In this document: in pieces, positions 4,776-5,075 of the stretch
Position numbering within the stretch: the stretch's first letter is position 1
Layout: the number at the start of each line of letters is the position of its first letter
Assembly (NCBI GenBank): GCA_964515215.1
Contig: CAZESL010000054.1
Location: 1 to 15,547, forward strand
Direction of reading: 5' to 3'
Source: an uncultured Eubacteriales bacterium
GTDB taxonomy: Bacteria; Bacillota; Clostridia; Oscillospirales; Acutalibacteraceae
DNA length: 15,547 bases
Translations under genes and position numbers: made by a program
The notes under the pieces: model-generated
The model's input: only the letters and a program-made list of their open reading frames with translations
Database searches by the model: none
What the model was told of the DNA's origin: nothing

Positions 4776-4803
4776 TTGTATAGGACACAACCTCGCGTAT
4801 AAT
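4776..4803 (+). promoter_or_regulatory. sigma70-like promoter (TTGTAT - 16 nt - TATAAT) with no downstream CDS
   Basis: -35 TTGTAT (4776-4781), 16-nt spacer, perfect -10 TATAAT (4798-4803). There is no plausible ORF or RBS before the terminator at 5044-5075. Confidence 0.4.
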
Positions 4804-4809
4804 TGTCGG

Positions 4810-5075
4810 CACGGAAGTGTCATCTTGTCGCAGAGAATCCCCCAGTCATTTTCTCCTCGCTTGTAAACACACCGCCTCGGGGAGAAATGCCGTAGGCATT
4901 TCTCGGAGACACGGTGCAGCTACTGCGACAAGTACAAATTGAAACCGTGTCCGCGCTCCTCGAAAATGCCAGCCCCCTTTAGTCAAGGGGGCCAAGGGTC
5001 ACAGCATTTTTCGAAGTTTAAGCAAATATCCGTAAAACACAACGGGGCTGTCGCGTCGGCGACAGCCCCGTTTTT
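4810..5075 (+). ncRNA. Candidate ~265-nt structured small RNA, convergent with the V-ATPase operon
   Basis: Bounded by the promoter above and the strong terminator. Internal pairings:
- a perfect 10-bp long-range stem CTTGTCGCAG (4824-4833) / CTGCGACAAG (4923-4932);
- two mutually exclusive 10-bp helices that share GAGAAA (4882-4887): TTTCTCCTCG (4850-4859) / CGGGGAGAAA (4878-4887), versus GAGAAATGCC (4882-4891) / GGCATTTCTC (4895-4904);
- a GC hairpin GCCCCC-N9-GGGGGC (4972-4992).
Only trivial ORFs are present (ATG-CCG-TAG). Confidence 0.3.
5044..5075. terminator. Bidirectional Rho-independent terminator, ending the rtcB/sRNA transcripts (+) and the atp operon (-)
   Basis: GGGGCTGTCGC-gtcg-GCGACAGCCCC is a perfect 11-bp GC-rich stem. 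TTTTT follows on the + strand, and the T-rich TGTGTTTT follows on the - strand. Confidence 0.75.

What the first reader, a model, noticed from the sequence alone, without database searches (positions are those of the whole stretch)
4776..5075. Orphan promoter and ~265-nt structured transcript with mutually exclusive helices, convergent on the V-ATPase operon terminator
A good promoter (TTGTAT-16-TATAAT) fires into a region with no ORF. It ends at the strong bidirectional terminator shared with atpK. The RNA has a 10-bp closing helix spanning 88 nt and two alternative 10-bp helices competing for the same GAGAAA segment. That is a switch-like architecture. Three readings are possible:
- a trans-acting sRNA;
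- an RNA antisense to the atp operon 3'UTR;
- a ligand- or thermo-responsive element.

Its position directly downstream of rtcB also allows it to be a 3'UTR-derived RNA of the repair module.
Basis: seen in the sequence. Interest (0 to 1): 0.55.

Follow-up and report, generated by a model that had tools for sequence, protein, structure and literature searches.

The report
Repeat-derived intergenic hairpins, not a riboswitch
The structured stretch between the rtcB repair operon and the V-ATPase operon is lineage-specific filler built around a disrupted copy of a short hairpin repeat found across Oscillospiraceae genomes and gut phage contigs, not a conserved regulatory RNA; the repeat family itself has an unusual mirror symmetry that fits a triple helix.

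Summary
The proposed competing helix is negligible (p about 0.01). Window 4699-5040 has no counterpart in the nearest relatives on either side. Homology to the closest RtcB island stops 2 nt after the rtcB stop. Homology to V-ATPase relatives stops at the terminator. There is no Rfam hit.

The core (4835-4993) is a copy of a dispersed repeat: pyrimidine box, variable hairpin, then a pyrimidine/purine hairpin. This repeat occurs 25 times in one Vescimonas replicon, on 28 gut viral contigs, and a second time in this window (15329-15398, minus strand). The copy here is atypical: its boxes are 129 nt apart instead of 14-27.

The most likely reading is junction DNA built from repeat modules. It is probably transcribed as an rtcB 3' tail and possibly also from its own promoter, and it is not a dedicated switch.

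One unexpected result: across at least 13 variants, the 5' box follows the parallel (Hoogsteen) code of the purine strand. That suggests an intramolecular triple helix.

The parts
4699..5040 (.). Lineage-specific junction DNA between the RtcB repair island (homology to L001 ends at 4698) and the V-ATPase operon flank (homology to L082/L083 ends at 5072/5041)
   Evidence: blastn of the window against L001 and L082-L084. No blastn or nhmmer match in 80 RtcB loci. tblastn found no remnant of the 154-aa gene that sits here in relatives.
4776..4803 (+). Sigma-70-like promoter TTGTAT-16-TATAAT (perfect -10, -35 matches 3 of 6). The -35 lies inside the near-palindrome TTGTATAGGACACAA.
   Evidence: Sequence. 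One of only three perfect TATAAT hexamers in the window, all with TTG at -35. Expected 0.17 per window by shuffling. Not called by the consensus scan. Activity not tested.
4824..4932 (+). One arm lies outside the repeat copy and the other inside its expanded linker.
   Evidence: Inverted repeat I4. Pairing probability 0.82. No homologues, so no covariation test was possible.
4835..4847 (+). Repeat box 1, GAATCCCCCAGTC (pyrimidine box; T4838 and C4839-4843 follow the Hoogsteen code of A4986 and G4987-4991)
   Evidence: Identical to box 1 of the Vescimonas and viral-contig copies. Model R1 partial hit at 4833-4850, 11 bits.
4848..4969 (+). Expanded linker of 122 nt where other copies have an 11-25 nt hairpin. 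Its ends, CATTTTC (4847-4853) and GAAAATG (4962-4968), are complementary as the family rule predicts. A 7-nt direct repeat CTCCTCG (4853-4859 and 4956-4962) brackets the extra DNA.
   Evidence: 24 distinct linkers, all hairpins, with the window as the outlier; forcing the family-type P1 costs +7.0 kcal/mol and its probability is about 0.
4870..4916 (+). Imperfect 22-nt-arm hairpin. Its apical palindrome GAGAAATGCC-GTA-GGCATTTCTC (4882-4904) is itself multi-copy elsewhere.
   Evidence: Inverted repeat I1. Probability 0.98. The exact pattern was found at 16 metagenome places, 10 of them in one assembly (ERZ827520, coverage about 4-4.7). Similarity does not extend beyond the 23 nt.
4970..4993 (+). 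Repeat box 2: CAGCCCCCTTTAGTCAAGGGGGCC. The hairpin pairs 4972-4979 (pyrimidine strand) with 4985-4992 (purine strand).
   Evidence: 25 places in Vescimonas fastidiosa NZ_AP023416.1. 28 viral contigs. Model R1 scores 30.1 bits, E = 1.4e-6, for 4894-4996. The same-strain contig L081 ends inside this hairpin.
4961..5013 (+). Outer helix CGAAAATGC / GCATTTTTCG that encloses box 2. This is a further copy of the GAAATGC/GCATTTC motif.
   Evidence: MFE structure. Probability 0.68-0.92.
5041..5072 (.). Bidirectional intrinsic terminator (14-bp stem, 4-nt loop). It is ancestral to the V-ATPase operon end.
   Evidence: Scan and inverted repeat I2. Terminators at the same position after atpK in L082 and L083 have different, compensated stems.
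15329..15398 (-). Second, full-length copy of the same repeat family (CCCTCC / GGGAGG variant). It lies next to GTAG-type REP-like palindromes at about 15240-15300.
   Evidence: Model R1 scores 29.1 bits, E = 2.6e-6, covering model positions 1-57. Sequence. Box 2 matches viral-contig variants.

Best explanation
Window 4699-5040 is lineage-specific filler. It sits at the junction between a horizontally acquired RNA-repair island (DUF2828/TROVE-like, Band-7, RtcB) and the 3' end of the V-ATPase operon.

Its core (4835-4993) is a solo, disrupted copy of a dispersed structured repeat common in Oscillospiraceae chromosomes and gut viral contigs. The repeat has three parts:
- a pyrimidine box;
- a short hairpin of variable sequence;
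- a pyrimidine/purine hairpin.

In this copy the short hairpin is replaced by 122 nt.

Inferred, not shown:
- rtcB has no terminator of its own here, so the region is probably transcribed as a roughly 380-nt rtcB 3' tail.
- It may also be transcribed from the promoter-like site at 4776-4803.
- Transcripts would end at the ancestral bidirectional terminator at 5041-5072.
- Any effect is most likely of the REP/BIME type. Stable hairpins in a 3' tail would buffer the upstream mRNA against 3' exonucleases and insulate two convergent operons. A ligand-, temperature- or target-specific switch is unlikely.
For: - Synteny breaks on both sides: L001 homology covers window 80-4698; V-ATPase relatives match only up to 5041-5072.
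- There is no homologue of 4697-5040 in 80 RtcB loci.
- Repeat nature of the core: 25 places in one Vescimonas replicon, 9 copies within 50 kb and 28 viral contigs.
- The covariance model R1 finds the window copy (30.1 bits) and a second full-length copy at 15329-15398.
- The family hairpin P1 has compensatory changes in 11 of 13 pairs, with 92.8% of cells paired against 79.7% in shuffles.
- The linker length here is an outlier, 122 nt against 11-25 nt.
- The apical palindrome is multi-copy in an unrelated assembly.
- A same-strain contig breaks inside box 2.
- There is no Rfam family, including for typical copies.
- No + strand terminator lies between the rtcB stop and 5041.
Against: - The promoter-like site is better than chance, so an independent transcript could exist and could have acquired a function in this lineage.
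- The predicted fold is very stable (z = -4.5), and the 10-bp closing helix is not explained by the repeat model.
- Only 15.5 kb of this genome is available, so the copy number in the genome itself rests on two copies.
- About 200 nt of the region (4699-4834 and 4994-5040) and most of the 122-nt linker match nothing that was searched.
- The function of the repeat family is unknown, so the REP-like role is an analogy rather than a result.
Confidence: 0.7

Rival explanations
1. A lineage-specific small RNA gene. The promoter at 4776-4803 makes a discrete ~265-nt non-coding RNA that ends at 5072. It acts in trans or as an antisense or insulator RNA, and it was built by exaptation of repeat modules. 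This rival overlaps with the best explanation rather than excluding it.
For: - The promoter-like site is non-random: all three perfect TATAAT hexamers in the window carry TTG at -35, and the other two are in a bona fide promoter region.
- A strong terminator with a T5 tail lies on the + strand.
- There is no ORF.
- The fold is stable.
Against: - The region is not conserved in the nearest relatives on either side.
- There is no Rfam hit.
- The -35 is weak (3 of 6) and the site is not called by the consensus scan.
- Antisense overlap with atpK is limited to the terminator.
- No expression data are available.
Confidence: 0.2
2. A ligand- or temperature-responsive switch (riboswitch or RNA thermometer) that uses mutually exclusive helices around the GAGAAA segment.
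For: Several segments can pair in more than one way.
Against: - There is no downstream gene to regulate, because the flanking genes are convergent.
- The alternative helix has probability 0.014 and costs +4.3 kcal/mol.
- There are no homologues, so no conserved aptamer and no covariation.
- There is no Rfam match even at E up to 10.
- The multiple pairings are explained by five copies of one short palindrome motif.
Confidence: 0.02
3. A functional RNA of the RtcB repair module: a Y-RNA-like or tRNA-like cofactor, or a 3'UTR-derived RNA.
For: - It lies directly downstream of rtcB.
- One other Oscillospiraceae RtcB locus (L059) also has a pair of family members directly downstream of rtcB.
Against: - It is absent downstream of rtcB in L001 (93% identical RtcB) and in the other loci.
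- R1 found only 3 hits in 887 kb of RtcB and other loci.
- ARAGORN finds no tRNA-like feature.
- The module's conserved structured RNA, with a T-arm-like hairpin and compensatory changes, lies upstream of Band-7.
Confidence: 0.04
4. It encodes a small protein, for example the 22-aa ORF 4914-4982, which has GGAG 5 nt upstream, or the 41-aa ORF 4817-4942.
For: Short ORFs exist on the + strand downstream of the putative start. GGAG at 4905-4908 precedes the GTG at 4914.
Against: - The start codons are buried in stable helices.
- There are no homologues.
- The ORFs run across repeat modules that are non-coding elsewhere, where linker lengths are not multiples of three.
Confidence: 0.03

Closest known systems
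REP / BIME elements of Enterobacteria (repetitive extragenic palindromes)
   Same: - Short, GC-rich, hairpin-forming and extragenic.
- Tens to hundreds of copies per genome, often in mosaic clusters and often between convergent genes or in 3' tails.
- Known to stabilise upstream mRNA (established knowledge).
- In Vescimonas, and at window 15240-15400, the family sits among GTAG-plus-palindrome modules that look like classical REPs.
   Different: - The architecture is a pyrimidine box, a hairpin of free sequence, then a homopyrimidine/homopurine hairpin, rather than one imperfect palindrome with a GTAG head.
- No RAYT transposase link was examined.
- Box 1 follows a mirror (parallel) code, which REPs do not have.
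MITE-like structured repeats that alter transcription: Correia/NEMIS of Neisseria; BOX and RUP of Streptococcus pneumoniae; ERIC
   Same: - Small non-autonomous repeats inserted in intergenic DNA.
- They can be co-transcribed, form long hairpins, and can bring or create promoters and processing sites (established knowledge).
- In viral contigs the family occurs as head-to-head pairs of about 110 nt that resemble terminal inverted repeats.
- A possible 7-nt target duplication, CTCCTCG, brackets the extra DNA in the window copy.
   Different: - The two halves of a pair are usually different variants, each internally consistent. That is not expected for transposase-recognised inverted repeats.
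- No transposase was identified.
- The duplication is a single unreplicated observation.
Intramolecular triplexes: H-DNA at mirror-repeat polypurine/polypyrimidine tracts, and RNA major-groove triple helices (ENE-type elements, some pseudoknot riboswitches)
   Same: - A pyrimidine strand whose 5'-to-3' sequence is T for A and C for G of a purine strand read in the same direction is the pyrimidine-motif triplex code (established knowledge).
- The complementary strand satisfies the purine-motif code.
- The chain order is third strand, linker, Watson-Crick pyrimidine strand, loop, purine strand, which is topologically feasible.
   Different: - ENE triplexes are U.A-U with an A-rich tail, whereas here the triplex would be mostly C+.G-C, which is unfavourable at neutral pH.
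- H-DNA needs supercoiled duplex DNA.
- No physical evidence was obtained here; there is only sequence covariation.
Non-coding RNAs of RtcB repair modules: Y RNA / YrlA with Rsr, and a tRNA-like RNA reported with Band-7 modules (Burroughs and Aravind 2016, recalled from memory; the paper could not be retrieved)
   Same: The location is next to an rtcB gene in an operon with a TROVE-like (DUF2828/DUF7788) protein and a Band-7 protein.
   Different: - The region at 4776-5075 has no T-arm, no conservation with the module and no Rfam or ARAGORN signal.
- The conserved T-arm-containing RNA is upstream of Band-7, at window about 2030-2216.

Membership tests
Dispersed repeat 'pyrimidine box - variable hairpin - pyrimidine/purine hairpin' (unnamed; model R1 built here) | 5' box (G/A)AATCCCCCAGTC or a co-varying pyrimidine variant | tested here: met
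   GAATCCCCCAGTC at 4835-4847 is identical to the Vescimonas copies. R1 partial hit at 4833-4850.
Dispersed repeat 'pyrimidine box - variable hairpin - pyrimidine/purine hairpin' (unnamed; model R1 built here) | 3' hairpin CAGCCCCCTTT-N3-5-AAGGGGGCC (8-bp homopyrimidine/homopurine stem) | tested here: met
   Present at 4970-4993. R1 scores 30.1 bits, E = 1.4e-6. It is 97% identical to 25 places in NZ_AP023416.1.
Dispersed repeat 'pyrimidine box - variable hairpin - pyrimidine/purine hairpin' (unnamed; model R1 built here) | A short (11-25 nt) perfect hairpin of free sequence between the boxes | tested here: not met
   The window has 122 nt between the boxes. Only the 7-nt ends (4847-4853/4962-4968) are complementary, and that helix has a predicted probability of about 0 and costs +7.0 kcal/mol. 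The copy is best described as disrupted or expanded.
Dispersed repeat 'pyrimidine box - variable hairpin - pyrimidine/purine hairpin' (unnamed; model R1 built here) | Multiple copies in the same genome | tested here: met
   A second full-length copy lies at 15329-15398 on the minus strand. Only 15.5 kb of the genome could be examined.
Curated RNA families (Rfam 15: riboswitches, sRNAs, Y RNA/YrlA, tRNA-like) | Covariance-model score at or above the gathering threshold | tested here: not met
   No hit in the window at gathering thresholds. The only hit in 4650-5150 at E up to 10 is a chance 10-bit snoRNA match. ARAGORN finds nothing.
Riboswitch / RNA thermometer | A conserved sensor domain upstream of a regulated gene, with an energetically balanced alternative structure | tested here: not met
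   No downstream gene, because the flanking genes are convergent. No homologues. The alternative helix has probability 0.014.
Cognate RNA of the RtcB / Band-7 / TROVE-like repair module | Conserved linkage with the module across genomes | tested here: not met
   Absent downstream of rtcB in L001 and in 79 other loci. The conserved non-coding element is upstream of Band-7.
Intrinsic (rho-independent) terminator | GC-rich stem-loop followed by a T run at the end of a transcription unit | tested here: met
   5041-5072 has a 14-bp stem with 10 G-C pairs and T-rich tails on both strands. The position is conserved after atpK in L082 and L083 with compensated stems.
Sigma-70-type promoter | -35 and -10 hexamers with a 16-18 nt spacer; transcription initiation | tested here: inconclusive
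   The -10 is perfect, the -35 matches 3 of 6, and the spacer is 16 nt. The site is non-random by shuffling but below the scan's criteria. Initiation cannot be tested with these tools.
REP / RAYT system | GTAG-type head plus an imperfect palindrome; an associated RAYT (IS200/IS605-like) transposase in the genome | not tested
   GTAG-plus-palindrome modules lie next to family copies. The family itself lacks that layout, and no genome-wide search for a RAYT was possible.
MITE | Terminal inverted repeats and a target-site duplication | tested here: inconclusive
   Head-to-head pairs in viral contigs look like inverted repeats, but the two halves are different variants. The single candidate duplication CTCCTCG (4853-4859/4956-4962) could be chance.

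The most novel reading that the evidence does not exclude
The repeat family, of which 4835-4993 is a member, is a previously undescribed class of dispersed element. It is selected to fold, as single-stranded DNA or RNA, into an intramolecular triple helix. In that fold the 5' pyrimidine box lies in the major groove of the downstream pyrimidine/purine hairpin, and a free-sequence hairpin acts as the linker. On the complementary strand the equivalent purine-motif triplex would form.

The evidence is a parallel (mirror) covariation that ordinary duplication or inversion cannot generate, and it is kept in at least 13 sequence variants. Under this reading the window copy is an expanded member that happens to sit behind a promoter.
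Probability: 0.3. Interest if true: 0.8.

Novelty: new variant of a known kind. Interest (0 to 1): 0.45.

Why it matters
For the finding as submitted, the result is mainly a caution. A very stable, promoter-to-terminator, ORF-free intergenic fold can be assembled from selfish repeat modules and can be absent from the nearest relatives. Fold stability and alternative helices are therefore not evidence of a riboregulator.

The analysis also places the conserved RNA of this RtcB/Band-7/TROVE-like repair module elsewhere, upstream of Band-7.

The broader point concerns the repeat family. It is abundant in gut Oscillospiraceae and their phages and has no match in Rfam. It shows a base-by-base parallel code between a pyrimidine box and a purine strand. 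If that code reflects a real triple helix, these would be natural, high-copy bacterial and phage triplex elements supported by covariation. That would matter for mRNA 3'-end protection, replication or transcription blocks, genome instability, and assembly breaks in gut metagenomes.

Tried and rejected
- **Rfam.** Searched at gathering thresholds on the whole window, at E up to 10 on 4650-5150 and up to 5 on 1-2420, and on typical repeat copies and the ERZ827520 arrays. Nothing relevant was found.
- **ARAGORN.** No tRNA or tmRNA.
- **Pseudogene remnant.** The 154-aa convergent gene found after atpK in relatives leaves no tblastn trace in the window.
- **Homology of 4697-5085.** blastn and nhmmer against 80 RtcB loci, 3 V-ATPase loci, 16 metagenome loci, 28 viral loci and 50 kb of Vescimonas matched only box 1, box 2 and the 23-nt palindrome.
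- **INPHARED phages.** No match for the intergenic region or for a typical head-to-head pair.
- **Viral-contig scan for the apical palindrome.** No match.
- **Shared origin with the ERZ827520 unit.** I considered that the promoter plus GTCGGCAnGGA leader might be homologous to the ERZ827520 'TATGGTATAATGTCGGCAAGGAGAAATGCC' unit. I rejected this as unproven. The parts lie on opposite sides of box 1, so no simple insertion history fits, and nhmmer E-values are about 0.6-0.8.
- **Watson-Crick competition.** I considered that box 1 might compete with the pyrimidine strand by ordinary pairing, as a switch. I rejected this because asymmetric variants match the purine strand in parallel over their full length (7-8 nt) but antiparallel over only 4-5 nt.
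- **Orientation of family copies relative to genes.** In viral contigs the copies are mostly head-to-head pairs, so no strand preference can be read. In the Vescimonas annotation the orientation is mixed.
- **Literature.** Searches for the RtcB/Band-7 RNA paper and for the repeat sequence found nothing usable.
- **Correction.** The helix probabilities and the +17 kcal/mol figure used registers shifted by one base. They are superseded.
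Full report
**Context**

The window carries a + strand operon:
- a DUF2828/DUF7788 protein (264-1889), which I recall as TROVE/Ro-like;
- a Band-7/SPFH protein (2392-3507);
- RtcB (3494-4696).

A V-type ATPase operon lies on the minus strand and ends with atpK at 5086-5517. The finding lies in the 389-nt gap between the two convergent operons (4697-5085). The nearest relatives are uncultured Oscillospiraceae.

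Mostly yes.
- TTGTAT (4776-4781), a 16-nt spacer and TATAAT (4798-4803) are present. The consensus scan did not list the site because the -35 matches only 3 of 6.
- The window holds only three perfect TATAAT hexamers. All three have TTG at -35 with a 16-17 nt spacer, and the other two sit in the divergent promoter region at 12362-12848.
- Dinucleotide shuffles give 0.17 such sites per window and 0.004 per intergenic region. The promoter-like site is therefore more than chance, although its activity is untested.
- No ORF exceeds 49 aa.
- The terminator at 5041-5054/5059-5072 has 14 perfect pairs.
- The 10-bp helix 4824-4833/4923-4932 is perfect, with predicted probability 0.82.
- The hairpin at 4882-4904 has probability 0.98.
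- Both strands fold far better than shuffles (z = -4.5 and -5.4).

The claimed competing helix is weaker than described. It is 7 bp (4850-4856/4881-4887), its probability is 0.014, and forcing it costs 4.3 kcal/mol (which corrects a one-base register error).

**Is it conserved?**

No.
- The closest RtcB island (L001; RtcB 93% and Band-7 93% identical) aligns with window 80-4698 at 89% DNA identity. The alignment stops 2 nt after the rtcB stop. L001 then has its own terminator and an unrelated gene.
- None of 80 RtcB loci has anything similar to 4697-5085 by blastn or nhmmer.
- On the other side, V-ATPase relatives (AtpI 85, 83 and 79% identical) align from the operon through atpK. L082 and L083 continue through the terminator (to window 5072 and 5041), while L084 stops at the atpK stop codon (5086). 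They then carry a convergent 154-aa gene and mnmA.
- L082 and L083 each have a terminator at that position with a different, compensated stem. The terminator therefore belongs to the V-ATPase operon.
- The 154-aa gene has left no trace in the window.

So 4699-5040 is junction DNA specific to this lineage. Rfam gives nothing.

**What is it made of?**

- A search of plasmid records matched window 4967-4998 at 25 places in one Vescimonas fastidiosa replicon. Nine of those copies lie within 50 kb.
- The pattern CAGCCCCCTTT-NNN-CAAGGGGGC occurs on 28 gut viral contigs.
- Aligned copies show a conserved box (G/A)AATCCCCCAGTC, then a hairpin of 11-25 nt whose sequence differs between copies but always pairs, then the conserved hairpin CAGCCCCCTTT..AAGGGGGCC.
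- On 31 copies, 11 of the 13 pairs of the variable hairpin show compensatory changes. 92.8% of cells are paired, against 79.7% in shuffles and 42-54% when the partner is slid. Only one G-U pair was seen.
- A covariance model built from these copies (R1) finds the window copy (4894-4996, 30.1 bits, plus box 1 at 4833-4850). It also finds a second full-length copy at 15329-15398 on the minus strand (29.1 bits). That second copy lies beside GTAG-plus-palindrome modules like those that surround the Vescimonas copies.
- A same-strain contig from another assembly ends inside the box-2 hairpin, which is typical of assembly breaks at repeats.

**How the window copy differs**

- Box 1 (4835-4847) and box 2 (4970-4993) are separated by 122 nt instead of 11-25 nt.
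- The ends of that stretch, CATTTTC (4847-4853) and GAAAATG (4962-4968), are complementary exactly where the family rule predicts. That helix is not competitive, costing +7.0 kcal/mol.
- A 7-nt direct repeat, CTCCTCG (4853-4859 and 4956-4962), brackets the extra DNA.
- The extra DNA contains the 4870-4916 hairpin. Its apical palindrome GAGAAATGCC-N3-GGCATTTCTC occurs at 16 metagenome places. Ten of these lie on nine contigs of one assembly, at similar coverage, where the palindrome is part of tandem ~95-nt units. Similarity to the window is limited to those 23 nt.
- Five copies of the GAAATGC/GCATTTC motif in 170 nt explain why so many alternative helices can be drawn.

I read this as a disrupted or expanded repeat copy embedded in unmatched filler.

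**Likely behaviour**

- rtcB has no + strand terminator before 5041. The region is therefore probably transcribed as a 3' tail of the repair operon, and possibly also from the promoter-like site.
- Both kinds of transcript would stop at the bidirectional terminator.
- By analogy with REP/BIME elements, the stable hairpins may protect the upstream mRNA and separate the convergent operons. This step is inference.

**An unexpected property of the family**

Box 1 is neither a copy nor the complement of the box-2 pyrimidine strand. It is its mirror image. Read 5' to 3', it gives C for each G and T for each A of the purine strand read in the same direction. That is the code of a pyrimidine-motif triple helix.

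The relation holds as the sequences vary:

| Box 1 | Purine strand |
|---|---|
| CCCCC | GGGGG |
| CCCTCC | GGGAGG |
| CCCCTCC | GGGGAGG |
| CTCCCTCC | GAGGGAGG |
| CCTTCCTC | GGAAGGAG |
| CCCCTCTC | GGGGAGAG |
| CCTCTTC | GGAGAAG |
| CCCCTTT | GGGGAAA |

Other variants follow the same rule.

- Among 312 de-duplicated asymmetric pyrimidine/purine hairpins in about 1.2 Mb, the mirror 6-mer lies within 45 nt upstream in 83. The control words (direct copy, purine copy, complement-mirror) occur in 8-12.
- Excluding the main variant, there are 40 mirror matches against 3 for the reversed code. The maximum in 2000 permutations is 28. Each hairpin is counted on both strands, so about half of the entries cannot match, and 13 variant classes are involved.
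- Ordinary antiparallel pairing of box 1 with the purine strand reaches only 4-5 nt in asymmetric variants, so a Watson-Crick switch does not explain the pattern.
- The complementary strand satisfies the purine-motif code, which does not depend on pH.
- In viral contigs the modules mostly occur as head-to-head pairs made of two different variants, each internally consistent.
- Typical copies have no Rfam match. A typical head-to-head pair (L105 4640-4790) has no match in deposited phage genomes. I found no paper that describes them.

Whether a triplex forms in vivo is unproven. A run of C+.G-C triples is unfavourable at neutral pH.

**The repair module's own RNA**

- The 500-nt gap between the DUF2828 gene and Band-7 (1890-2391) is 91% identical in L001 and partly conserved in more than 25 loci.
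- In 12 loci that carry Band-7 it contains a 5' hairpin (GCGGTGC...GTATGCC) and a T-arm-like hairpin (GGTTCGAnTCC). Both show compensatory changes.
- This is a far better candidate for a module-associated RNA than 4776-5075.

**Verdict**

The region is a lineage-specific, repeat-derived intergenic segment and is possibly transcribed. Taken on its own it is of modest interest. The repeat family it belongs to deserves a separate look.

Noticed in passing
window 2030-2216 (within the 1890-2391 gap); L001 3483-3708; 10 further Band-7 loci (alignment A3): A conserved structured non-coding element lies upstream of the Band-7 gene. It has a 5' hairpin (GCGGTGC..GTATGCC) and a tRNA T-arm-like hairpin (GGGGTTCGACTCCCC at 2139-2153; GGTTCGAnTCC in the other loci). 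Both show compensatory changes in 12 loci. It is in neither Rfam nor ARAGORN output. It is probably the cognate RNA of the RtcB/Band-7 module.
   Followed up: partly
window 1913-1960; L001 1152-1205 and 3400-3442; upstream of the first gene of the module in more than 25 RtcB loci: The palindrome GCTGTGAACGGTAAAATTTTACGGTTCGCAGC, followed by a T run and CCGTGATTT, is conserved (22-25 nt at 92-96% identity) upstream of DUF2828, Band-7 or rtcB in many distantly related loci. It is a candidate operator, promoter or terminator of the repair module.
   Followed up: partly
window 52-75: A second T-arm-like sequence, GGCGG-AAAGAGTTCGACTC-CCGCC, lies upstream of the DUF2828 (TROVE-like) gene at the left edge of the window. 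It could be part of a Y-RNA-like partner. The contig end prevents analysis.
   Followed up: no
loci L001-L080: This RtcB subfamily is preceded either by a DUF2828/TROVE-like gene or by a Band-7 gene, as apparent alternatives. Only the window and L001 have both.
   Followed up: partly
all loci; for example L059 5249-5301 and 5344-5396, L124 (11 copies in 14.7 kb), L106, L128: In the repeat superfamily the 5' pyrimidine box follows the parallel (Hoogsteen) code of the purine strand of the downstream hairpin. This holds across at least 13 variants, and the copies usually occur as head-to-head pairs of two different variants. It suggests an intramolecular triplex.
   Followed up: partly
L086, L087, L093-L100 (assembly ERZ827520): Tandem arrays of ~95-nt units, present at 10 places on 9 contigs of one metagenome-assembled genome. 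Each unit has TATGGTATAATG, a GAGAAATGC..GCATTTCTC hairpin whose stem co-varies between units, and a GCGCCGCC...GGCGGCGC hairpin. Some arrays sit behind a TTGACT-17-TATAAT promoter. There is no Rfam match.
   Followed up: partly
window 15240-15300; L085 1340-1460: GTAG-plus-GC-rich-palindrome modules (for example GTAGGGCGGGGGCTTGCTCCCGCC) resemble classical REP sequences. They are clustered with the repeat family in BIME-like mosaics.
   Followed up: no
window 4776-4790: The -35 region lies inside a near-palindrome, TTGTAT-AGG-ACACAA, which could be an operator. It is predicted as a hairpin on the minus strand.
   Followed up: no
L081 (Logan SRR14307658), matching window 4985-5165 on the minus strand: An independent assembly of the same strain is 100% identical over the overlap, and its contig ends inside the box-2 hairpin. 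That is consistent with a break caused by a repeat or a palindrome.
   Followed up: yes
window 7451-8278 (minus strand): The mechanical ORF for AtpD (275 aa, TTG start) overlaps AtpB by 180 nt. Relatives have a 210-aa AtpD, so the true start is probably further downstream.
   Followed up: no
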